Shown: piece by piece, positions 1 to 9,119 of the stretch | Layout of the letters: every line of letters starts with the position of its first letter | Numbering within the stretch: position 1 is the first letter of the stretch | Origin: Methylococcaceae bacterium | GTDB lineage: Bacteria; Pseudomonadota; Gammaproteobacteria; Methylococcales; Methylomonadaceae | NCBI GenBank assembly: GCA_007280895.1 | Contig: QYQN01000023.1 | Span: 30,861 to 94,860 of the forward strand | Direction of reading: 5' to 3' | Length of the DNA: 64,000 nucleotides | Translations under genes and position numbers: made by a program | Notes under the pieces: model-generated | The model's database searches: none | What the model was told of the DNA's origin: nothing | The model's input: only the letters and a program-made list of their open reading frames with translations

Positions 1-278
1 AACTGGATCCAGACGTACTAACTCTTGATGTAGAAATGCCTAGAATGAACGGAATTACTTTTTTACGTAATTTGATGCGCTTGCGTCCAATGCCTGTGGT
101 GATGATTTCAGCCTTAACGGAAAGCAATGCTGAAGTGACACTTGAAGCGTTATCAATAGGGGCGGTCGATTTCATTGCAAAACCAGTCGTTAATGTTGAA
201 AATACATTAAATGATTACGCTGATGATATTATTACAAAAGTAATTATGGCCTCCAAAGCTAACTTCAGGACAACGTAA
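1..278 (+). CDS. CheB-type receiver (REC) domain protein without a methylesterase domain; 5' end lies outside the window
   Basis: The reading frame is open from base 3 ([29 protein letters not shown]...) and stops at 276-278. It aligns colinearly with residues ~49-139 of the downstream CheB. The phospho-acceptor context LTLDVEMP and the FIAKP lysine are retained. It ends in the linker (ASKANFRTT). Confidence 0.7.
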
Positions 279-342: not shown

Positions 343-1422
343 ATGAATAAAATTCGAGTTTTGATAATAGATGATTCTGCATTAGTCAGAAAAATTTTAA
401 CTGAAGTTCTCACCTCTTCACCTGACATTGAGGTTATTGGCACTGCAGCAGATCCCCTGATTGCTAGAGAAATGATTAAACAATTAAATCCAGATGTATT
501 AACGTTGGATATAGAAATGCCCCACATGGACGGCATAACCTTCTTAAGAAATCTGATGCGTTTACGGCCTACGCCTGTGATCATGATTTCAACCCTAACC
601 GAAAAAGGTGCCGAAGTCACTTTAGAAGCCCTATCGTTAGGCGCTGTTGATTTTATTTTTAAACCTAAAGTTAATGTCGTCAAAACACTGAATGACTATG
701 CTGACGAAATTATTGCTAAAATCAGGGTTGCCGCCAAAGCAAATGTCCGTAATATCAACTACAGACAAGTAAAATCAAAAGCTGATGATATTGTCCCAAA
801 AACAGCGCTGTCTCCCAAATCATCGAACACTGACAATGCGAATACCATTATTGCCTTAGGTGCTTCAACCGGCGGTACTGAAGCAATTAAAGTAGTGGCT
901 AAGGGACTCACAGCTGAAACGCCACCATTATTTATAACTCAACATTTGCCCGCAGCATTTAGTGTGTCATTCGTCCAACATGTTGATATGGTCACGGAAA
1001 TGAAAGCAAGTATTCCTACTCATGGGGAAATTGCTAAGAAAGGACATATCTACCTCGCGCCAGGCGATAGACACATGCTCGTGATTAGGGAAAATGGTCA
1101 ATATGTCATTCATTTAAACGATAGCGACCCTGTCAATAGACATAAACCAGCCGTTGACGTGCTCTTTCAATCTATTGCTGAATGCGCAGGAAAAAATGCT
1201 ATTGCAGTCTTACTAACTGGCATGGGTGCTGACGGCGCAATAGGCATGAAACAAATGCATGATATGGGGGCTAAAACGCTTATTCAAGACGAGCAATCCA
1301 GTGTCGTGTGGGGAATGCCAGGAGCCGCTTATAAACTAGGCTGCACTGATTACGTATTACCCATAGACGACATCGCCAATCAAATTCAAACGTTAATAAA
1401 ACAAATCAAACATAACAATTAA
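343..1422 (+). CDS. cheB: Protein-glutamate methylesterase/glutaminase CheB (REC plus methylesterase domains)
   Basis: N-terminal REC domain (VLIIDDS, LTLDIEMP, FIFKP). The C-terminal domain carries the catalytic-triad contexts GASTGGTEA (Ser), TQHLP (His) and GMGADG (Asp). Confidence 0.93.
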   Translation: MNKIRVLIIDDSALVRKILTEVLTSSPDIEVIGTAADPLIAREMIKQLNPDVLTLDIEMPHMDGITFLRNLMRLRPTPVIMISTLTEKGAEVTLEALSLGAVDFIFKPKVNVVKTLNDYADEIIAKIRVAAKANVRNINYRQVKSKADDIVPKTALSPKSSNTDNANTIIALGASTGGTEAIKVVAKGLTAETPPLFITQHLPAAFSVSFVQHVDMVTEMKASIPTHGEIAKKGHIYLAPGDRHMLVIRENGQYVIHLNDSDPVNRHKPAVDVLFQSIAECAGKNAIAVLLTGMGADGAIGMKQMHDMGAKTLIQDEQSSVVWGMPGAAYKLGCTDYVLPIDDIANQIQTLIKQIKHNN

Positions 1423-1498: not shown

Positions 1499-2107
1499 AT
1501 GAACATTCAAACAAAATCTCAATTTGTTGCCGTAGCATCTATTACATCTGAATTAAGTGCGGTCATGGTCGTTGCTAAGGAAATATCATTAGCCGCAGCT
1601 AATGCTAAAGCCATTGCATTTAGAGCGGGAGACAAAGCGAAAGGATTTCAACCAATCACTGATTTCATTAATGAGCTCGCTAAAGAAACAATCGAGTTAG
1701 TCACCAGTATCAACGTCTATGCACTTTCACTATACCAACTAACTGTTAATGAATATCGTAAAACAATAGCTTACAATAAATTTGAATTAATCGCTGAGTT
1801 ATCAAAAGATGCGGCTCATGCTCACTCTATGGAAGAGCCTCTTGAAAAAGCAAAACTTACCATGGAAAACTGTCAACGACAATTTAAACGCGATGTAAAA
1901 CAATTATTAGATCAGCTAGAAGCAGTTATGCACCATGCTAGAGCGGCACGAGTAATTGCTGCAAATTCACGAATCGAAGCATCTCAAGCCGGCGAATATC
2001 TACAAAGTTTACAAGCAGTAGCTGAAAGTGTAGATAAAGCCGCACATACCATTCACGATAATGTACAGCGTTGTAGAATCGCATTATCTCTTTATAGAAA
2101 TAATTGA
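1499..2107 (+). CDS. Small soluble MCP-signalling-domain-like protein with two hairpin-tip motifs; no sensor, TM, HAMP or methylation region
   Basis: Residues 31-63 (LAAANAKAIAFRAGDKAKGFQPITDFINELAKET) and 152-185 (VIAANSRIEASQAGEYLQSLQAVAESVDKAAHTI) both resemble the conserved MCP tip LALNAAIEAARAGEqGRGFAVVAdEVRkLAerS. The rest of the protein looks helical. No hydrophobic TM segment. Confidence 0.6.
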   Translation: MNIQTKSQFVAVASITSELSAVMVVAKEISLAAANAKAIAFRAGDKAKGFQPITDFINELAKETIELVTSINVYALSLYQLTVNEYRKTIAYNKFELIAELSKDAAHAHSMEEPLEKAKLTMENCQRQFKRDVKQLLDQLEAVMHHARAARVIAANSRIEASQAGEYLQSLQAVAESVDKAAHTIHDNVQRCRIALSLYRNN

Positions 2108-2130
2108 ACCCTAAAGTAAGGCAGTGTCTC

Positions 2131-2862
2131 ATGAAAATGACAAAAATATACGAAGGCTCGCATCAATGGATTATGTTTGGTAGAGATGAAAACAAGCCTT
2201 CCAATATCATAGACAGCAACCAATATGCTGTAAGAACAGCCAATAAATGCTTATTAATGGATCCGGGCGGTTCTGAATTATTTGCTCCAATGATGGCAGC
2301 TATTTTGCACCACGCTCCGGTAGAGCAAATAACTGATTTGTTCGCATCCCACCAAGATCCAGATGTAATTTCATCATTAGGTTTATGGGATCAAGCGCTT
2401 TCAAATGCAAAATTACACGCACCGGCGCTTTGGGAAGGCTTTATTCGTCATTATCTTGGCTGTGAATCAATTGAATATGTACCAATTCCAGACAATGGTG
2501 GAACGATAAAATTAGAAAATATTGAATTGCAACTGATTCCAGCTCATTATCTACACTCATCTGCTAACTTTCATGTCTATGATCCTCAAGCAAAAATTTT
2601 AATGTCTGGCGATGTAGGTTCTGCATTGGAACCGGCGGGCACGCCGATGTTTGTAGAAAACTTTGATTCACATATTGAAAAAATGAGATATTTTCATCAA
2701 CGCTGGATGCCATCAAATCATGCCAAAAGAGCATGGATTGAACGCGTAAGAAATTTAGATATTGATATTCTTGCACCACAACATGGCCGAATTTTTAAAG
2801 GCGATGATGTTAAGCACTTCTTAGATTGGTTTGATGCATTACAAGTAGGAGTTGCTGTTTAA
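2131..2862 (+). CDS. Metallo-beta-lactamase-fold protein, ODP-like (candidate di-iron oxygen/iron sensor for chemotaxis)
   Basis: The ORF track starts at a TTG at 2104; the ATG at 2131 (MKMTKIYEG) is preferred. Motifs spaced as in the MBL/flavodiiron fold: SHQDPD, IPAHYLH, MSGDVGS, APQHGRIF. It lies 24 nt downstream of the mini-receptor stop, or overlaps that stop if the TTG is used. Confidence 0.55.
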   Translation: MKMTKIYEGSHQWIMFGRDENKPSNIIDSNQYAVRTANKCLLMDPGGSELFAPMMAAILHHAPVEQITDLFASHQDPDVISSLGLWDQALSNAKLHAPALWEGFIRHYLGCESIEYVPIPDNGGTIKLENIELQLIPAHYLHSSANFHVYDPQAKILMSGDVGSALEPAGTPMFVENFDSHIEKMRYFHQRWMPSNHAKRAWIERVRNLDIDILAPQHGRIFKGDDVKHFLDWFDALQVGVAV

Positions 2863-2879
2863 CACAGCAACTATTTTTT
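2851..2879 (+). terminator. Rho-independent terminator after the ODP-like gene
   Basis: Perfect 8-bp stem gttgctgt / acagcaac (2851-2858 and 2864-2871) with a 5-nt loop that contains the TAA stop. It is followed by tatttttt. The T-run lies inside the 3' end of the convergent mlaA-like gene. Confidence 0.65.
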
Positions 2880-3779
2880 AAAACGATTTAATTTACTTTC
2901 TGCCTGCCTATAATCTTCTACTGCTTTCTCAAAGTGGTAAATAGTTTTATCAAAAACTAATGAAGACGCTTTAAAAGAATTGCGCAATTTAGGTAAAGTG
3001 CTTGTTGAATTTAAAGCACTTTCATCTAACTCTTCGTCAAAATCTAAAGATTGATTTCCCTTCCCATCAGAGGATAAATTTCTCCGCCATTGCAAGAAAG
3101 ATTCTCTAGTAAATAAATAGGGGTCTAACGCTGCTTCATCAATAAATTTTAACGCCCCTTCTGCATTAGCACGGGCATTTAAAATAGACAACAACTGTAT
3201 TGGCGCACCAATATAACTTGTAGGATTAGTTGCAGTATCAAACATAGCACCAGGAACTCCGCGTAAAGTGAGTGGGCCTACAATTGGCAATACTAAATAA
3301 GGCCCCTCTGGAACACCCCACACAGCAAGCGTTTGATCAAAATCTTCATCATTTTGCTCAAGCCCCAAATCTTTAGCCACATCAAAGATACCTAATAAGC
3401 CTAAACTTGTATTGACGACTAACCGTCCTGAGTCTTTAGCACTCTGCTTAAATTTTGCCTGTAACACATCATTGAAAATAACATTAAAATTTCTTAAATT
3501 AGTATAGAAATTAAAAATACTATTTTTAACAAACTGAGGAGCGACATACTGATAAGCATTTGAAATAGGCTCAGCCAAGTATTCATCAAGATAATCATTG
3601 AAGACAAATACTTTCCTATTAATGTTCTCATAGGGATCAGTCTTTTTAACCATGGAGTTGTGGTCTAAAACAGGCTGAGACGCGCACCCACTTATAACGA
3701 CAAAGACCAAGGATAAAAAATAAAAAACTCTTTTTTTACCCAACCAAAGAGCAAACAAGTTTAATAAATAAGCAGTCAT
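2871..3779 (-). CDS. mlaA: MlaA/VacJ-family outer-membrane lipoprotein
   Basis: Lipobox VVISGC. VacJ-like core (DPYENINRKVFVFNDYLDEYLAEPISNAY...GLLGIFDVA). Carries a C-terminal extension of about 60 aa. Confidence 0.8.
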   Translation of the reverse strand: MTAYLLNLFALWLGKKRVFYFLSLVFVVISGCASQPVLDHNSMVKKTDPYENINRKVFVFNDYLDEYLAEPISNAYQYVAPQFVKNSIFNFYTNLRNFNVIFNDVLQAKFKQSAKDSGRLVVNTSLGLLGIFDVAKDLGLEQNDEDFDQTLAVWGVPEGPYLVLPIVGPLTLRGVPGAMFDTATNPTSYIGAPIQLLSILNARANAEGALKFIDEAALDPYLFTRESFLQWRRNLSSDGKGNQSLDFDEELDESALNSTSTLPKLRNSFKASSLVFDKTIYHFEKAVEDYRQAESKLNRFKK

Positions 3780-3791
3780 AACTAGGATTTG

Positions 3792-4406
3792 TTATTGTTT
3801 AGAATAAATAGTAATCTTTTCATTAATCTTAGCTATTAAAGCATCAAAGCCTTCATGTTGCAAAATGTTGGTGTATTCAGAACGCTTTACAGCCAGATCA
3901 CTTACCCCGTTAGCTATGATATTGATAATTTTCCAATGCCCTGCAATTTCTTTGAGATTATAGTCAAATTTGACAGCTTTATCGTTAGGAATGACTAAAT
4001 GAGAATGTACAACAACCCCGCCTCTTGCCGTCTCTTCCTCCGAATCAAAAACAAAGCTTTCACCTGAATATTCTTTAAAATTATGAGCATAAGAAGCAAC
4101 GCTGTACTTGCTAAAAGTAGTGACCAAGATATCTTGCTGCTCTTTTGACAACCCCTCCCACTCTTTACCCACTACAATACGCACTATCTTAGTTAAATCA
4201 TGAGTATCTGAAACAGGCTCATAAAGCGCTTCATAACGCCCAGAATACCCAAGCTGCTTGCCCTTTTTCATAGCAGTAAGCAATTGCGACTGAAAGCCTT
4301 CAACAACTTGACGAGCAGTTAATAGCTCTTGAGCCGAAACAGTAAAAACTACCAAGCATAATACACATAAATACAAAAACTTAACTTTAGTTAACAACAT
4401 CAGCAT
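3792..4406 (-). CDS. hpnM: MlaC/Ttg2D-family periplasmic lipid-binding protein, HpnM-like
   Basis: Signal peptide, about 200 aa, with the size and pattern of the Ttg2D/MlaC family. It lies immediately downstream of hpnH, as hpnM does in hopanoid loci. Confidence 0.7.
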   Translation of the reverse strand: MLMLLTKVKFLYLCVLCLVVFTVSAQELLTARQVVEGFQSQLLTAMKKGKQLGYSGRYEALYEPVSDTHDLTKIVRIVVGKEWEGLSKEQQDILVTTFSKYSVASYAHNFKEYSGESFVFDSEEETARGGVVVHSHLVIPNDKAVKFDYNLKEIAGHWKIINIIANGVSDLAVKRSEYTNILQHEGFDALIAKINEKITIYSKQ

Positions 4407-4414
4407 TCCTTAAA

Positions 4415-5536
4415 TTAAATCGATTCACCCTGTAATTTTTCTACAACTTCGACGTTAACAGGAATTTTGGATAAAGATGATGCTACAACCTCTTCAAAAC
4501 GTGACTCTGGCACCATTTCACCCTCAGTTTTAATGCCTTTTAAAGATAACACCAAGGCCTTAAAGGGATTTCTTAACATATCCTCAACGGCAGTAGCCTC
4601 ATAACCACAATGCGCCATACAGCTTGCACATTTTGGATTACTATTATTGCCATATTTTTCCCAAGGAGTCGTTTCCAGTAACTCATTAAAACTCGCTGCA
4701 TTACCTTCATCAGCCAATAAATAACACGGTTTTTGCCACCCAAATACATTTCGCGTTGGATTGCCCCAAGGCGTACACTCATAATTTTGATTACCAGCTA
4801 AAAAATCAAGATACAGCGAGGAATGATTTAAACTCCATTTACGCTGCTTCCCGATTTTAAAAATACCTCTAAATAACTCCTTAACATCACGACCTTTAAT
4901 AAAGACATCTTGTTGCGGTGCGCGTTCATAACTGAAGCCTGGAGCAATCGTGACGCCTTCAACACCTAAATCAGTAACGTAATCTAAAAACTCAGCAACT
5001 TCGTGGGCATTTTCGCCTTGAAATAACGTACAATTTACTGTCACCCTAAAACCTTTAGTTAAGGCTAGTTTTATAGCTTCCACAGCACGTTCAAAAACCC
5101 CCTCCTGACAGACAGACGTATCGTGCCGATCTTGCATACCATCCAAATGAATTGAAAACGTTAAATAAGGCGACGGCTTATAATCATCAATACGCTTTTT
5201 CAACAACAATGCATTAGTACACAAATACACATATTTTTTTCTAGCAATAATGCCTTCAACAATTTGCGGCATCTCTTTATGGATTAATGGTTCGCCTCCA
5301 GGAATAGATACCATTGGCGCATTACATTCATCAACAGCCTGCATACATTCCTCAAAAGATAATCTTTTATCCAAAATGTCATCTGGATAATCAATTTTAC
5401 CGCATCCTGCACAAGCTAAATTACAACGAAAAAGAGGCTCTAACATCAACACCAAGGGATATTTTTTAACGCCTTTTAGTTTTTGTTTAATCAGATAACT
5501 GCCAACAGTCAATTGTTGACGCAAAGGAACACCCAT
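4415..5536 (-). CDS. hpnH: Adenosyl-hopene transferase HpnH (radical SAM)
   Basis: CNLACAGCGKI radical-SAM CxxxCxxC motif and a C-terminal Cys cluster. The start was moved to the ATG at 5536 (MGVPLRQQLTVGSYL), which has a GGAGG Shine-Dalgarno 4 nt upstream. The 25-codon extension in the ORF track has no support. Confidence 0.9.
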   Translation of the reverse strand: MGVPLRQQLTVGSYLIKQKLKGVKKYPLVLMLEPLFRCNLACAGCGKIDYPDDILDKRLSFEECMQAVDECNAPMVSIPGGEPLIHKEMPQIVEGIIARKKYVYLCTNALLLKKRIDDYKPSPYLTFSIHLDGMQDRHDTSVCQEGVFERAVEAIKLALTKGFRVTVNCTLFQGENAHEVAEFLDYVTDLGVEGVTIAPGFSYERAPQQDVFIKGRDVKELFRGIFKIGKQRKWSLNHSSLYLDFLAGNQNYECTPWGNPTRNVFGWQKPCYLLADEGNAASFNELLETTPWEKYGNNSNPKCASCMAHCGYEATAVEDMLRNPFKALVLSLKGIKTEGEMVPESRFEEVVASSLSKIPVNVEVVEKLQGESI

Positions 5537-5993
5537 AAAACCTCCAAAATGATTATTTATCGACAAAGATAAACTGAAAATAAAATTTTCATAATAATAA
5601 GCTTGTAGCAATAAAACAACAACAAATTACCACTTCACAACAGTAAATAAATAGGCCTTACACTCAGGTAGCTTATAAAAACACGATAAAACGGATAAAC
5701 CATTGCAAAAATTATTTCAGTCTAAATGTCATCTAGCTGCACTGTACAAAGCAATTAATCAACCAGACTAATTGTCAAATTGACTCCCCTAAATACAACA
5801 ACATCAGTAAATATTAAACGCCCAAACGCGCACAACATACCTTAGCTTAAGTAAGGCAAAGCACTTTCTCAAAAAATCAATACCTCTAAACCTACTCATA
5901 AATTAGCTTTAAAACAACATTGCTTTGCAAAATACCAACAAACAGTCTATGATTTAAAAAAATAATTAAGACAATTTAGTAAATATCGAGCGT

Positions 5994-7112
5994 ATGGGAA
6001 AGTTTGCAATTGACTTAGAAAACCCAAAATCACTAAATCAACTTTCAGATAACGATTTTCAATTAGCATTATTGGAAGGCGTATCCAGAACATTTGCCTT
6101 AACAATTCCTCAACTACCCCCTGAATTATTCGCTCCGGTAGCTAATGCTTACTTGCTATGCAGAATTGTCGATACAATTGAAGACGAAGTGTCGTTATCA
6201 GTGCGTCAAAAAGAATATTTTTGTGCCGAATTTACTACAATTGTCACGACTGGCGAAAATACAGAATTATTTGCTATAGAACTTGCCCCGTTATTATCGG
6301 ATCAAACCCTTGCAGCAGAACATACGCTGATACATGTTTTACCACGCGTAATCCAAATCACTCATACTTTTGCGCCCGAGCAAATTACAGCTTTATCAAG
6401 ATGCGTAGCAACAATGGCGAAAGGCATGCCTGTTTATCAATCAATGGAATTACAAAAAGGCTTAGCAACCCTTAAAGACCTGGATTTATATTGCTACTAC
6501 GTAGCTGGATGCGTTGGCGAAATGCTCACCGAATTATTCTGCTTTTACTCCTCAGACATTGCTAAACACCGCACTGAAATGCTGGCTCTTTCAGTATCTT
6601 TTGGACAGGGTTTACAAATGACCAATATTTTAAAAGATATTGCAGATGATGCTCAACGTGGTGTGTGTTGGCTGCCACAAGACATCTTCACCGAAGTCGG
6701 CTTTGATTTAAAATCTCCAGCATTTGATAAAAACACCGCTCAATACCGCGCAGGCGTAAAGAAATTAATTGCCATAGCGCATGGTCACTTAAACAACGCA
6801 CTAAAATACACGCAGCTATTACCAAAAAATGAACCTGGGATTCGTAATTTCTGCTTATGGGCCGTAGGCATGGCTATTTTGACCCTTAGAAATATACAAA
6901 AAAATACAGCAAGCAGAGCAGAAACGCCGATCAAAATTAGCCGAAATGATGTTAAAAAAACCATTTTTATCACAAATCTATTCAACAAAAATAATACCAT
7001 GCTGGATTTAATTTTTAATTTAGCAAGCTTGGGTTTAACAACATCCAAAAAAACAGCTCAACCTATGTCAACTCAAACCAATGTTACAAAGTTTCTACAT
7101 TTAAAAAAATAA
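5994..7112 (+). CDS. sqs: Squalene synthase (farnesyl-diphosphate farnesyltransferase, single-enzyme Sqs type)
   Basis: Squalene/phytoene synthase fold: SRTFALTIPQLP, Asp-rich motifs RIVDTIEDE and NILKDIADDAQRG. At 372 aa it is longer than HpnC/HpnD. It lies directly upstream of shc. Confidence 0.75.
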   Translation: MGKFAIDLENPKSLNQLSDNDFQLALLEGVSRTFALTIPQLPPELFAPVANAYLLCRIVDTIEDEVSLSVRQKEYFCAEFTTIVTTGENTELFAIELAPLLSDQTLAAEHTLIHVLPRVIQITHTFAPEQITALSRCVATMAKGMPVYQSMELQKGLATLKDLDLYCYYVAGCVGEMLTELFCFYSSDIAKHRTEMLALSVSFGQGLQMTNILKDIADDAQRGVCWLPQDIFTEVGFDLKSPAFDKNTAQYRAGVKKLIAIAHGHLNNALKYTQLLPKNEPGIRNFCLWAVGMAILTLRNIQKNTASRAETPIKISRNDVKKTIFITNLFNKNNTMLDLIFNLASLGLTTSKKTAQPMSTQTNVTKFLHLKK

Positions 7113-7151
7113 GAAGCCAGCATAAATCAACTATTTTTTTAAGGACTTACT

Positions 7152-9119
7152 ATGTTTACTGATGCCAATCAACATTCCAATGCACGCGTCACTGCAAGCG
7201 CATCCGTTGCAATTCTATCGCATGCTAATAACTTAGATAACGCAATTGATAGCGCAAAAAAACAGCTACTTCAGCTTCAAGACCAGCAAGGCTATTGGTT
7301 ATTTGAACTCGAAGCAGACTGCACTATCCCTGCTGAGTACATTCTAATGATGCATTATCTTGATGATATTGATCATACTTTGCAGGCAAAAATGGCGACC
7401 TACCTAAGATCTCGTCAATCAGAAGATGGCAGTTACCCTTTATTTACAGGCGGACAAGGTGATATTAGCTGCAGTGTTAAGGTTTATTATGCCTTGAAAT
7501 TATCAGGTGATGACAGCAATGCACCCCACATGCAAACACTAAGAGAATTTATTCTTAAGCAAGGTGGTGCGGCAAAAGCAAATGTATTTACTCGAATTGC
7601 ATTAGCTATTTTTGGTCAATTACCTTGGCGCGGCGTCCCCTATATTCCTGTTGAAATCATGCTTCTACCCTCATGGTTTCCCTTCCATTTAGACAAAGTC
7701 TCTTACTGGTCAAGAACGGTAATGGTGCCTCTTTTTATTTTATGCACATTACAAGCTAAGGCTAAAAACCCATTAAATATTAATGTCCTTGAGCTTTTTG
7801 TCACGCACCCTGATAAAGAACAACATTACTTCCCAAACAGAACAGTATTAAATAAAATTTTCTTAGGTCTTGATAAGGCGGGACGGGCGTTCGAATCATT
7901 CATTCCTTCGGGCTTTAGAAACAAAGCACTTAAAAAAGCCGAGGCGTGGTTTGTAGAAAGACTTAATGGCGAGGATGGTTTAGGTGGTATTTTTCCAGCG
8001 ATGGTCAATGCTTATGAAGCCTTACTGTTATTAGGCTATGCTGAAGACAATGAATTAGTCATTACTGCTCGTAAAGCAATAGATAAACTACTAGTCGTCA
8101 ATGAAGAGGATGCGTATTGTCAACCATGCTTATCCCCCATCTGGGATACTGCATTAGTCGCATTAGCATTACAAGAAGTGGACAAGAGTGCTCCCCAACC
8201 TGTCATTCAACACAGTCTAGCATCAGCATACTCATGGTTAAAATCTAAACAACTCACTGATGAGCCCGGCGATTGGCAAATAAAAAATCCACGCTTAGCC
8301 GGTGGTGGCTGGGCGTTTCAATTTGCTAACCCTCATTATCCAGATGTAGATGATACTGCAGTTGTCGCTTTTGCAATGGCTGATTCTCACTTAACCAATT
8401 TAAATGAATCCATTACTAGAGCCACTAAATGGATAGCTGGCATGCAATCTGATAATGGCGGTTATGGTGCATTTGATATTAACAATACCAGTTACTATTT
8501 AAATGAAATTCCTTTTGCAGACCACGGCGCCTTACTTGACCCACCTACTGCTGACGTAAGTGCACGTTGCGCCATGTTGTTAGCTAAAATCTGCACCACC
8601 AATGGCGACTATTTACCCGAATTAACACGCACACTTAACTATTTGCGCAAAGAGCAAGAAGAAGATGGCTCGTGGTTTGGTCGGTGGGGCACCAACTATA
8701 TTTATGGAACTTGGTCGGTGCTTATTGCGTTAGAACAAACTGACACGCCCAAAACAGATTCAGTTTTTGTCAAGGCGGCTCAATGGTTAAAAAGTATTCA
8801 ACGTCCTGATGGCGGATGGGGGGAAGATAACTTTAGCTATCACGACACGACCACTAAAGGACGCTACCACTTCAGTACCTCTTTTCAAACAGCATGGGCC
8901 TTATTAGGCTTAATTGCAGCTGGCGAAGTACATTCAGCAGAAGTAAAAGCGGGCATAGATTTTATTTTACGTCACCAACAAACTGATGGTTTTTGGAATG
9001 ACAAATGTTTTACTGCCCCCGGTTTCCCAAAGGTTTTTTATTTGAAATATCATGGCTATGATAAATTCTTCCCATTATGGGCCTTAGCTAGATACCGTAA
9101 TGAGAGTCGTCAATCGTGA
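7152..9119 (+). CDS. shc: Squalene-hopene cyclase
   Basis: 655 aa. Repeated QW motifs (QDQQGYW, RQSEDGSYP, QRPDGGWGE, QQTDGFW) and the catalytic DVDDTA motif. Confidence 0.95.
   Translation: MFTDANQHSNARVTASASVAILSHANNLDNAIDSAKKQLLQLQDQQGYWLFELEADCTIPAEYILMMHYLDDIDHTLQAKMATYLRSRQSEDGSYPLFTGGQGDISCSVKVYYALKLSGDDSNAPHMQTLREFILKQGGAAKANVFTRIALAIFGQLPWRGVPYIPVEIMLLPSWFPFHLDKVSYWSRTVMVPLFILCTLQAKAKNPLNINVLELFVTHPDKEQHYFPNRTVLNKIFLGLDKAGRAFESFIPSGFRNKALKKAEAWFVERLNGEDGLGGIFPAMVNAYEALLLLGYAEDNELVITARKAIDKLLVVNEEDAYCQPCLSPIWDTALVALALQEVDKSAPQPVIQHSLASAYSWLKSKQLTDEPGDWQIKNPRLAGGGWAFQFANPHYPDVDDTAVVAFAMADSHLTNLNESITRATKWIAGMQSDNGGYGAFDINNTSYYLNEIPFADHGALLDPPTADVSARCAMLLAKICTTNGDYLPELTRTLNYLRKEQEEDGSWFGRWGTNYIYGTWSVLIALEQTDTPKTDSVFVKAAQWLKSIQRPDGGWGEDNFSYHDTTTKGRYHFSTSFQTAWALLGLIAAGEVHSAEVKAGIDFILRHQQTDGFWNDKCFTAPGFPKVFYLKYHGYDKFFPLWALARYRNESRQS

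What the first reader, a model, noticed from the sequence alone, without database searches (positions are those of the whole stretch)
1499..2107. 202-aa soluble protein with two chemoreceptor hairpin-tip motifs in tandem: a possible single-chain mimic of an MCP dimer tip
Seen directly: the protein has no TM, sensor, HAMP or methylation-helix region. It contains two segments resembling the most conserved part of MCP signalling domains (consensus LALNAAIEAARAGEqGRGFAVVAdEVRkLAerS). These are residues 31-63, LAAANAKAIAFRAGDKAKGFQPITDFINELAKET (nt 1589-1687), and residues 152-185, VIAANSRIEASQAGEYLQSLQAVAESVDKAAHTI (nt 1952-2053). Inference: if each AG(D/E) turn is a hairpin U-turn, the chain would run helix 1 (about 44 aa), tip 1, helix 2, a top loop near residues 100-112, helix 3, tip 2, helix 4. 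That is a four-helix bundle with both tips at the same end, which is the geometry normally built from two MCP subunits. Known minimal soluble receptors such as Thermotoga TM14 are single hairpins that dimerise. I do not know of a described tandem-hairpin receptor. It sits directly after cheB and is coupled to a putative sensor gene.
Basis: partly seen in the sequence, partly recalled or inferred. Interest (0 to 1): 0.75.

Follow-up and report, generated by a model that had tools for sequence, protein, structure and literature searches.

The report
Single-chain two-tipped mini chemoreceptor
A 202-residue soluble protein encoded just before an oxygen-binding di-iron sensor gene contains two copies of the chemoreceptor hairpin tip in one chain, so a single molecule probably imitates the tip of a normal receptor dimer, a design so far known only from engineered proteins.

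Summary
ORF 1499-2107 encodes a 202-aa protein with two diverged copies of the MCP hairpin tip. The halves resemble each other (score 71 vs 25.6±4.3 shuffled). Each half-profile independently hits the tip of T. maritima TM14 in register (E 6e-8 and 2e-6).

AlphaFold2 models of this protein and of a ~31-33%-identical relative are confident. They superpose best on ~196-aa single-chain four-helix bundles (rmsd 4.7-6.9 Å). Covariation independently places turns at residues 44/45, ~105 and ~166, with helices 1/3 and 2/4 parallel. That gives a four-helix bundle with both tips at one end.

The gene belongs to a ~200-aa gammaproteobacterial family. An ODP (oxygen-binding di-iron protein) gene follows it in 86 of 86 loci, with or without che genes nearby. 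Only tip 1 keeps the residues that contact CheA-P5 and CheW (Tsr N381, R388).

Best reading: a natural single-chain "pseudo-dimer" receptor that relays ODP's O2/Fe signal to CheA.

ODP-coupled sensorless receptors, the two-ended receptor DosM and engineered single-chain dyads are known. I found no description of this natural architecture.

Caveats: no coordinates were available, DSSP shows no break at tip 1, a domain-swapped dimer is not excluded, and no binding was tested.

The parts
1499..2107 (+). Gene for the 202-aa single-chain two-tipped mini receptor (stop codon included)
   Evidence: ORF. A 100% identical protein in Methylovulum sp. MAGs is annotated 'chemotaxis protein'. It belongs to a family of about 200 aa with 176 clusters at 50% identity and E<1e-10.
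1505..1627 (+). Helix 1 (residues 3-43), equivalent to an MCP N-helix running towards tip 1
   Evidence: AF2 models. Covariation band with helix 2 is centred at i+j=89, p 4e-10.
1589..1690 (+). Tip 1 motif (residues 31-64), LAAANAKAIAFRAGDKAKGFQPITDFINELAKET, with the predicted U-turn at G44/D45. It keeps the CheA-P5/CheW contact residues N35 (Tsr N381) and R42 (Tsr R388), plus G44 (G390) and G49-F50 (G395-F396).
   Evidence: Family conservation: N35 100%, R42 94%, G44 99%, F50 89%, with no indels. The N-half profile hits the TM14 tip at E 6e-8. HMMER aligns residues 15-70 with Tsr 361-416. Interface residues come from PMC13098124, Table 1.
1634..1801 (+). Helix 2 (residues 46-101), equivalent to an MCP C-helix running away from tip 1
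   Evidence: AF2. Covariation with helix 3 is antiparallel at i+j=210, p 6e-15. Covariation with helix 4 is parallel at offset 119-121.
1802..1819 (+). Top loop (residues 102-107) joining the two hairpins
   Evidence: Non-helical in both AF2 models. This is the region of the family alignment where insertions and gaps concentrate, and it is followed by a Ser/Thr and Pro-rich helix start.
1820..1981 (+). Helix 3 (residues 108-161), the second N-helix equivalent
   Evidence: AF2. Covariation with helix 1 is parallel at offset 120-123, p 2e-8.
1952..2053 (+). Tip 2 motif (residues 152-185), VIAANSRIEASQAGEYLQSLQAVAESVDKAAHTI, with the turn at 162-166. It is a degenerate MCP tip that keeps E160 (Tsr E385), A161, L171 (F396 position) and A175, but not the N381 and R388 equivalents.
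   Evidence: The C-half profile alone hits the TM14 tip at E 2e-6 in register. Conservation: E160 99%, G165 56%, N156 22%, R at 163 27%. There is a DSSP break at 162-164. Some members have one-residue insertions after G165.
1991..2101 (+). Helix 4 (residues 165-201), the second C-helix equivalent
   Evidence: AF2. Covariation with helix 3 is antiparallel, best at i+j=331-334, p 4e-5.
2131..2862 (+). ODP (oxygen-binding di-iron protein) gene, the presumed sensor partner. An alternative TTG start lies at 2104.
   Evidence: PF19583 at E 1.7e-69. Full-length match to the crystallised ODPs 6qrq/6qwo (E 3e-60) and 6qnm/6r9n (E 5e-51). It lies directly downstream of the mini receptor in 86 of 86 loci with room.
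2850..2872 (+). Terminator-like hairpin followed by a T-run at the end of the ODP gene
   Evidence: Consensus scan. This is a pattern match only.
343..1422 (+). cheB, the last classical gene of the che operon that runs off the left edge of the window
   Evidence: Response_reg plus CheB_methylest. The full operon was read in L001. cheB is adjacent in 67 of 88 loci, so the adjacency is lineage-specific.

Best explanation
The gene encodes a minimal cytoplasmic chemoreceptor made of two tandem, diverged copies of the MCP hairpin tip. The chain folds back on itself into one four-helix bundle about 8 nm long, with both tips at the same end. One polypeptide therefore stands in for the tip of a conventional receptor homodimer.

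It has no sensor domain, HAMP domain or methylation region. Its input comes from the protein encoded by the next gene, ODP. In Treponema denticola, ODP is an O2 sensor for chemotaxis that is genetically coupled to a sensorless soluble receptor.

The two tips are not equivalent. Tip 1 keeps the residues that contact CheA-P5 and CheW in E. coli core complexes (N381, R388 and the I377 position). Tip 2 has lost N381 and R388 but keeps the E385 equivalent and the core positions. I infer that tip 1 docks to CheW or CheA-P5. I infer that tip 2 plays the role of the inward-facing partner subunit, providing bundle and trimer contacts. On this reading the built-in asymmetry of a receptor dimer in an array has become hard-wired.

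ODP in its O2- or iron-loaded state would bind the bundle and shift CheA kinase output, giving aerotaxis in a methanotroph that lives at oxic-anoxic interfaces.

Shown here: the duplication, the homology of both halves to MCP tips, the conserved pairing with ODP, and the predicted fold with supporting covariation.

Inferred: monomeric state, CheA/CheW binding, ODP binding, the division of labour between the tips, and the physiological signal.
For: Duplication:
- Half-versus-half score 71 against 25.6±4.3 in shuffles.
- hhalign of the half-profiles gives E 5e-5.

Both halves are MCP tips:
- N-half profile E 6e-8 and C-half profile E 2e-6 to the same region of TM14, plus TM1143, 6s18 and Tsr.

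Fold:
- AF2 gives pLDDT 95.1/pTM 0.87 for this protein and pLDDT 90/pTM 0.81 for a Teredinibacter homologue about 31-33% identical.
- The best PDB matches of both models are single-chain four-helix maquettes: 6z0c_C at TM 0.63, rmsd 6.1 Å; 6z0c_B at rmsd 4.7 Å over 199 columns.

Covariation (Neff 143):
- All six helix-pair bands expected for this bundle are enriched.
- Free register scans peak at i+j = 89, 210, 331-334 and 208, and at parallel offsets of about 120.

Sequence features of turns:
- G44 is 99% conserved, G49 87%, P52 59%, and there are no hydrophobic residues at 42-49.
- Indels occur only at the top loop, after G165 and at the termini.

ODP link:
- ODP is adjacent in 86 of 86 loci.
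- These include five of five distant genomes where no che genes are nearby.
- ODP is homologous to the crystallised ODPs.
- ODP is genetically coupled to, and works with, a sensorless receptor in T. denticola (PMC7666581; PMC6978683; PMC7319448).

Tip asymmetry:
- Conservation table read against the interface residues in PMC13098124, Table 1.

Feasibility:
- Engineered single-chain dyads of 71-residue Tm14 or Tar tip hairpins bind CheA and CheW and change kinase activity (bioRxiv 10.1101/2020.03.27.011866).

Context:
- This is the only receptor-like ORF in the che operon and in the 64-kb window.
Against: - The DSSP line of both AF2 models shows a continuous helix through tip 1 (H3-101 and H11-104). 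I could not inspect coordinates, so the U-turn there rests on the Foldseek rmsd, covariation and homology.
- AF2 was run on a monomer only.
- Covariation cannot distinguish intra-chain contacts from the same contacts made between chains.
- The Pfam MCPsignal score is below the gathering threshold.
- Tip 2 is weakly conserved at its glycine (56%).
- No binding to CheA, CheW or ODP was tested.
- In most lineages outside Methylobacter and Methylovulum the gene pair is not next to che genes.
- I could not read Muok et al. 2019. I therefore cannot exclude that TDE2496 or other ODP partners have the same architecture, or that it was noted there.
Confidence: 0.62

Rival explanations
1. Open or domain-swapped assembly. 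The chain does not close on itself. Either both tip motifs stay helical and two long hairpins (loop at 102-107) pack antiparallel, or helices 2 and 3 are collinear and two chains swap hairpins. The second form would be a rod of about 16 nm with a double tip at each end, a miniature DosM able to bridge two CheA/CheW baseplates in a cytoplasmic array.
For: These assemblies reproduce exactly the same covariation bands between chains, so cannot exclude them. DSSP shows no break at tip 1 in either model. The operon carries a ParA-like ATPase and two cheW genes. From my own knowledge, that composition is typical of cytoplasmic-array systems such as R. sphaeroides PpfA; I did not check it here. DosM shows that two-ended receptors exist.
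Against: Both AF2 monomer models are compact bundles, with rmsd 4.7-6.9 Å to 196-aa four-helix bundles. That is impossible for a 15-nm hairpin or rod. G44 is 99% conserved at the position that forms the U-turn in all solved MCPs. Helix-breaking residues and indels mark 102-110 and 165/166 as loops. In most genomes the pair is an orphan without its own CheA, CheW or ParA.
Confidence: 0.15
2. A tip mimic rather than a signalling receptor. The protein binds CheW or CheA-P5 (or receptor trimers) as a decoy or inhibitor whose availability ODP controls. Alternatively, in the orphan loci it passes ODP's signal to something other than CheA, such as c-di-GMP enzymes.
For: There is no adaptation region and no methylation motif. 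Only one tip keeps the CheA/CheW contact residues. Engineered single-chain tip dyads deactivate CheA. Orphan pairs in Teredinibacter, Grimontia and Thaumasiovibrio are flanked by GGDEF, EAL, HD-GYP-type and PilZ genes.
Against: The conservation pattern is that of the MCP protein-interaction region and peaks at both tips. In the window's lineage the pair ends a complete che operon that has no other receptor gene. The characterised ODP acts through its receptor on CheA. The enrichment of c-di-GMP neighbours was not tested against chance.
Confidence: 0.15
3. An ordinary short MCP fragment: a single hairpin with its tip at residue 44 that homodimerises like TM14. On this view the second 'motif' is generic coiled-coil composition.
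For: Single-sequence Pfam scans of C-halves give MCPsignal in only 3 of 34 members at E<1, alongside many coiled-coil families. PDB hits of the full sequence align mainly to motif 1.
Against: The C-half profile hits MCP tips specifically and in register at E 2e-6, with TM14 best, as for the N-half. Internal similarity is about 10 sd above shuffles. A tip at residue 44 of 202 would leave a 155-residue unpaired arm. Both the H3-H4 covariation band and the AF2 turn fall at 162-166.
Confidence: 0.03

Closest known systems
ODP-coupled sensorless soluble chemoreceptors (T. denticola TDE2496 with ODP TDE2498; T. maritima TM14, PDB 3g67/3g6b)
   Same: Both are cytoplasmic and have no TM, sensor or HAMP region. 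TDE2496 is genetically coupled to an ODP gene, and ODP serves as the O2 sensor acting through the receptor on CheA (PMC7666581; PMC6978683). TM14 is the best PDB match of both halves.
   Different: TM14 is a single symmetric hairpin of about 213 residues, with its tip in the middle, and it forms a homodimer. Here each hairpin is about half that length and two are fused in one 202-aa chain, with non-equivalent tips. Whether TDE2496 is single or tandem could not be checked. That TM14 is the ODP partner in T. maritima is from my memory of Muok et al. 2019, which is not held in the library.
DosM (V. cholerae VC1403), the 'double signaling domain' receptor of F9 cytoplasmic arrays
   Same: One polypeptide carries two MCP signalling regions. 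It is cytoplasmic (PMC7534058).
   Different: DosM is an extended rod with one signalling domain at each end, and it staples two CheA/CheW baseplates together. Here the models and covariation place both tips at the same end of a short bundle. DosM is much larger and is not ODP-linked.
Engineered single-chain receptor 'dimers' (fused dyads of 71-residue Tm14 or Tar tip hairpins, with or without a foldon; single-chain Tsr/Tar constructs)
   Same: Same design principle and similar size: two tip hairpins joined head to tail so that one chain forms the four-helix protein-interaction region. The engineered versions bind CheA and CheW and alter kinase activity (bioRxiv 10.1101/2020.03.27.011866; PMC4692393, listed).
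   Different: Those are laboratory constructs with two identical hairpins. This one is natural and conserved across gammaproteobacterial orders. Its two hairpins have diverged to about 25% identity and have complementary conservation.
Two-protein receptors such as CetA/CetB (a separate sensor protein plus a signalling protein)
   Same: Sensing and signalling are split between two adjacent genes (PMC12442639).
   Different: CetA is a membrane-anchored conventional MCP and CetB is a PAS-FAD protein. Neither has a tandem-tip architecture or an ODP sensor.

Membership tests
MCP signalling domain (Pfam PF00015) | Scores above the Pfam gathering threshold | tested here: not met
   27.3 bits against a cut-off of 34.6, E 3.8e-6, two stretches. 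Some family members carry a precomputed PF00015 hit and many do not.
MCP signalling domain (Pfam PF00015) | Conserved hairpin-tip signature (Tsr N381, R388, G390, G395-F396 equivalents) | tested here: met
   Tip 1: N35 100%, R42 94%, G44 99%, G49 87%, F50 89%. The register comes from the HMMER alignments to TM14 and Tsr. Tip 2 keeps only part of the signature: E160, A161, L171, A175.
MCP signalling domain (Pfam PF00015) | Long antiparallel hairpin with flanking flexible-bundle and methylation-helix regions | tested here: not met
   Each hairpin has arms of only 37-56 residues. There is no methylation-site motif, and the tip-distal region is the least conserved.
MCP signalling domain (Pfam PF00015) | Four-helix bundle formed by two identical subunits | tested here: not met
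   The bundle is predicted to form within one chain from two diverged repeats. Oligomeric state was not measured.
MCP signalling domain (Pfam PF00015) | Binds CheW and CheA-P5 and controls CheA | not testable with these tools
   Supported only indirectly, by conservation of interface residues in tip 1 and by operon context.
ODP-coupled sensorless cytoplasmic receptors | Gene adjacent to, and co-oriented with, an ODP gene | tested here: met
   86 of 86 loci with room downstream, including five distant genomes.
ODP-coupled sensorless cytoplasmic receptors | No transmembrane or sensor domain | tested here: met
   No Pfam or NCBIfam domain other than the weak MCPsignal match. The borderline hydropathy segment 8-26 is part of helix 1.
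ODP-coupled sensorless cytoplasmic receptors | ODP-dependent modulation of CheA | not testable with these tools
   Reported for T. denticola according to PMC7666581 and PMC6978683. Not tested for this family.
DosM-type double-signalling-domain receptors | Two signalling regions in one chain | tested here: met
   Both regions are tip-only fragments rather than full MCPsignal domains.
DosM-type double-signalling-domain receptors | Extended rod with one tip at each end, spanning two baseplates | tested here: not met
   The models are compact four-helix bundles with a conserved loop at 102-107. A domain-swapped dimer with this shape is not excluded experimentally.
DosM-type double-signalling-domain receptors | Encoded in an F9-class che cluster | not tested
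   The class of the window's che operon was not determined. The operon has cheY-cheA-cheW-cheW-parA-like-STAS-cheR-cheD-REC-cheB. Most family members are not in any che cluster.

The most novel reading that the evidence does not exclude
This would be a natural single-chain receptor 'dimer' whose two hairpins have divided the two jobs that the subunits of an ordinary receptor dimer take on by position in the array. Tip 1 would dock to CheW or CheA-P5. Tip 2 would serve as the inward-facing partner. The whole 22-kDa protein would act as a plug-in adaptor that lets the O2/iron sensor ODP speak to any resident chemosensory array. It would be the smallest natural chemoreceptor and a ready-made asymmetric minimal system for core-complex structural work.
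Probability: 0.4. Interest if true: 0.75.

Novelty: new variant of a known kind. Interest (0 to 1): 0.64.

Why it matters
All characterised chemoreceptors signal as homodimers. Inside arrays the two identical subunits do different things: one faces the trimer axis and the other touches CheW or CheA. That asymmetry is hard to study because the subunits cannot be mutated separately, which is why single-chain receptors were engineered.

A natural 202-aa single-chain version with already-diverged tips would allow each half to be mutated independently. It would also give a very small, soluble building block for reconstituting core signalling units. It would show that evolution reached the same solution as the protein engineers.

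Most family members score below the Pfam MCPsignal threshold. Surveys that define chemoreceptors by that domain (for example the method described in PMC7184735) will miss them.

The ODP pairing suggests a portable oxygen/iron-taxis module in methanotrophs, shipworm symbionts (Teredinibacter) and some Vibrionaceae. For methanotrophs, positioning in O2/CH4 counter-gradients is ecologically central.

Tried and rejected
- The search for related loci with the 67-sequence alignment failed because no stretch was conserved enough. A 10-sequence alignment worked, but the 80 loci kept were all Methylococcales.
- Both the first protein search and the profile search were also swamped by Methylococcales. 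A third search seeded with distant member P0170 was needed to reach Cellvibrionales and Vibrionaceae.
- Muok et al. 2019 (PNAS), the primary ODP paper, is not held in the library by DOI or PMC id. The length and architecture of TDE2496 therefore remain unknown to me.
- Single-sequence Pfam scans of C-halves were uninformative. Only the profile-to-PDB search showed the specific tip homology.
- No model coordinates are exposed. Topology had to be inferred from Foldseek rmsd/TM values and from my own mean-field DCA.
- Long-hairpin reading (tip near residue 105), rejected: an rmsd of 4.7-6.9 Å to 70-Å four-helix bundles is incompatible with a 145-Å hairpin, and the H1-H2, H3-H4 and parallel covariation bands would be unexplained within one chain.
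- Three-helix bundle with a protruding helix 1, rejected on the same rmsd argument.
- Papers on CetA/CetB, CheWS, IsmP/ImcA, the F7 system and the Vibrionales survey do not mention this protein family.
- Literature searches for a natural pseudo-dimeric or single-chain receptor found only engineered ones.
Full report
**What is there.** The window carries an ORF at 1499..2107 (+) encoding 202 aa. It lies 76 nt after cheB (343..1422). A gene follows whose product is an ODP-family metallo-beta-lactamase-fold protein (PF19583, E 1.7e-69). That product is a full-length homologue of the crystallised oxygen-binding di-iron proteins 6qrq/6qwo (E 3e-60) and 6qnm/6r9n (E 5e-51). An identical 202-aa protein occurs in Methylovulum sp. 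MAGs under the name 'chemotaxis protein'.

The window starts inside a che operon. Read from an identical contig (L001), the operon is cheY-cheA-cheW-cheW-parA-like-STAS-cheR-cheD-REC-cheB-[202 aa]-ODP. A terminator-like hairpin overlaps the ODP stop codon. Neither that operon nor the 64-kb window contains any other ORF that matches the family's half-profiles.

**The observation.** Pfam gives only a sub-threshold MCPsignal match (27.3 bits against 34.6, two stretches) and no TM, HAMP or sensor domain. NCBIfam has no model for it.

The two motifs are not chance:
- The halves align with score 71 against 25.6±4.3 in 500 shuffles, with none reaching it.
- The register puts G44 on G165, and hhalign of the family half-profiles gives E 5e-5 (E 6e-3 with a smaller set).
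- The N-half profile hits the hairpin tip of T. maritima TM14 (4jpb, 3ur1, 3g67) at E 6e-8 to 7e-7, and also TM1143, 6s18 and Tsr.
- The C-half profile alone hits the same region of TM14 at E 2e-6, and TM1143 and 6s18 at about 3e-4, with SRvEAsrage…vvAdn aligned on NATIEAARAGE…IVANE.

Single sequences of the C-half are too diverged for Pfam, with only 3 of 34 matching at E<1.

**The family.** An exhaustive search of 1.84 billion representatives finds 255 clusters at E≤1e-3 and 176 at E<1e-10. Nearly all are 196-220 aa and match end to end.

Both motifs are conserved family-wide:

| Feature | Conservation |
|---|---|
| Tip 1 | N35 100%, A36 94%, R42 94%, A43 91%, G44 99%, G49 87%, F50 89% |
| Tip 2 | E160 99%, A161 90%, L171 86%, A175 88%, G165 only 56% |
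| Whole protein | Highest around both tips, lowest at residues 81-130, as in MCPs |

Named members come from three groups:
- Methylococcales: Methylovulum, Methylobacter, Methylomonas, Methylomarinum, Methyloglobulus.
- Cellvibrionales: Teredinibacter, Agaribacterium, Exilibacterium, Aurantivibrio.
- Vibrionaceae: Enterovibrio, Grimontia, Thaumasiovibrio.

**Topology.** AlphaFold2 with a 67-sequence alignment gives pLDDT 95.1 and pTM 0.87. A second model, for Teredinibacter turnerae P0397 (about 31-33% identical), gives pLDDT 90 and pTM 0.81. Both have a loop at 102-107 (105-110 in P0397) and a break at 162-164 (167-168).

The tool's three-state DSSP line shows no break at tip 1, and coordinates are not exposed. 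I therefore used the fold searches as a ruler:
- The best PDB matches of both models are ~196-aa single-chain four-helix bundles. These are 5vju (TM 0.57, rmsd 6.9 Å), 6z0c_C (TM 0.63, rmsd 6.1 Å over 208 columns) and 6z0c_B (rmsd 4.7 Å over 199 columns).
- The long-hairpin MCP 2ch7 gives rmsd 67 Å.
- A 145-Å hairpin, or a three-helix bundle with a protruding helix, cannot superpose on a 70-Å bundle at 5-7 Å over all residues. The models must therefore contain a U-turn at tip 1.

As an independent test I ran mean-field DCA on 349 family sequences (Neff 143). Free scans of the register in each helix-pair block peak as follows:

| Helix pair | Orientation | Best register | p (Mann-Whitney) |
|---|---|---|---|
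| H1-H2 | antiparallel | i+j = 89 (turn at 44/45) | 4e-10 |
| H2-H3 | antiparallel | i+j = 210 | 6e-15 |
| H3-H4 | antiparallel | i+j = 331-334 | 4e-5 |
| H1-H4 | antiparallel | i+j = 208 | 0.02 |
| H1-H3 | parallel | offset 120-123 | 2e-8 |
| H2-H4 | parallel | offset 119-121 | 2e-5 |

These are the six bands of a four-helix bundle with both tips at one end.

Sequence features agree:
- G44, G49 and P52 cluster within nine residues, and positions 42-49 have no hydrophobic residues.
- Insertions occur only at the top loop, after G165 and at the termini.

Covariation cannot tell intra-chain contacts from the same contacts made between chains. A domain-swapped dimer therefore remains possible.

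**Link to ODP.** ODP follows the gene directly on the same strand in 86 of 86 loci with room. These include five of five distant genomes: P0271 from an unnamed MAG, plus Teredinibacter, Grimontia, Thaumasiovibrio and Agaribacterium. In those five the neighbourhood is otherwise unrelated and has no che genes. cheB is adjacent in only 67 of 88 loci. The conserved unit is therefore the two-gene module. In the Methylobacter/Methylovulum lineage that module has been appended to a che operon.

According to PMC7666581, ODP is the O2 sensor for chemotaxis in T. denticola. It is genetically coupled there to TDE2496, an MCP homologue without TM or sensing modules that can modulate CheA. PMC6978683 and PMC7319448 summarise the same finding and the existence of MCP-ODP operons in both gene orders.

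**Mechanism proposed.** Table 1 of PMC13098124 lists the Tsr residues within 4 Å of CheA-P5 and CheW in both 6S1K and 8C5V:
- I377, L380, N381, V384 and R388 contact both partners.
- Q374 contacts CheA only.
- R404 contacts CheW only.

The HMMER register (query 15-70 = Tsr 361-416) maps these onto the two tips:
- Tip 1 keeps N381 (N35, 100%), R388 (R42, 94%) and the I377 position (L31, 82% L).
- Tip 2 has T/N/S at the N381 position (N in 22%) and Q/R at the R388 position (R in 27%). It keeps E385 (E160, 99%), which tip 1 has lost (I/L/V).

By the established geometry of trimers of dimers, only the outward-facing subunit of a receptor dimer touches CheW or P5. I therefore infer that tip 1 is the docking hairpin and tip 2 the partner hairpin, and that ODP binding to the bundle shifts kinase control. 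This division of labour, the monomeric state and all binding steps are inferences.

The feasibility of the design is shown by engineered single-chain dyads of 71-residue Tm14 or Tar tip hairpins. These bind CheA and CheW and deactivate the kinase (bioRxiv 10.1101/2020.03.27.011866).

**Comparison with what is known.**
- ODP-coupled sensorless receptors are known. The one with a solved structure, TM14, is a single symmetric hairpin that dimerises.
- DosM has two signalling domains, but at opposite ends of a rod that spans two baseplates (PMC7534058).
- Single-chain receptor dimers exist as engineered constructs (PMC4692393).
- I found no description of a natural single-chain tandem-tip receptor.
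- The library lacks the primary ODP paper, so prior recognition cannot be excluded.

I rate this a new variant of a known kind.

**Verdict.** The function as the ODP-coupled input to CheA is well supported by context but untested.

Main open points:
- the DSSP discrepancy at tip 1;
- monomer versus swapped dimer;
- whether the protein activates, inhibits or merely occupies CheA/CheW sites.

Interest 0.64.

Noticed in passing
window 1..278 (+), continuing upstream as L001 8364-8780: A stand-alone 138-aa receiver protein sits directly before cheB. It is 74% identical over 136 aa to CheB's own receiver domain plus linker, and it best matches CheB models at positions 1-136 of 357. It looks like a recent duplicate of the CheB receiver without the methylesterase domain, possibly a phosphate sink or a competitor of CheB.
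   Followed up: partly
L001 5634-6801 (upstream of the window's left edge): The che operon contains a ParA-like ATPase and an overlapping STAS-domain gene between the second cheW and cheR. It contains no conventional MCP gene. From my own knowledge, ParA-like genes in che operons are associated with positioning of cytoplasmic receptor clusters; that was not tested here.
   Followed up: partly
L087 10391-11674; L088 5320-8578 and 10444-10854; L089 2988-5779 and 10406-11209: The orphan mini-receptor/ODP pairs in Teredinibacter, Grimontia and Thaumasiovibrio are flanked by c-di-GMP genes (GGDEF, EAL, HD-GYP-type HD_5, PilZ) and a BLUF photoreceptor gene. This could be coincidence in genomes rich in such genes.
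   Followed up: no
window 2104..2137: The ODP start is ambiguous. TTG 2104 overlaps the mini-receptor stop codon. ATG 2131 is the start used by public gene calls and has AAGG 9 nt upstream. The mini-receptor gene itself has no obvious Shine-Dalgarno sequence.
   Followed up: partly
window 2871..9119: Immediately after the module come MlaA-like and MlaC-like lipid-transport genes on the minus strand. They are next to hopanoid biosynthesis genes: an hpnH-like radical SAM gene (4415..5611), a squalene synthase-like gene (5994..7112) and squalene-hopene cyclase (7152..9119). According to the public gene calls these are followed by PNP_UDP_1, aminotransferase and CopC/CopD genes.
   Followed up: no
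models ma589d19d55ba and mc5d0e71f7468 (residues ~40-50): The three-state DSSP summary reads a continuous helix through the first tip in both AlphaFold2 models, although the global fit to four-helix bundles requires a U-turn there. Either the turn is tight enough to be read as helical, or the summary hides a kink. Coordinates are needed to tell.
   Followed up: partly
window 2131..2862 versus L085-L090: ODP is much better conserved than its partner. It is about 64% identical between the window and distant genomes, against 31-41% for the mini receptor. The receptor is therefore the faster-evolving half of the pair.
   Followed up: partly
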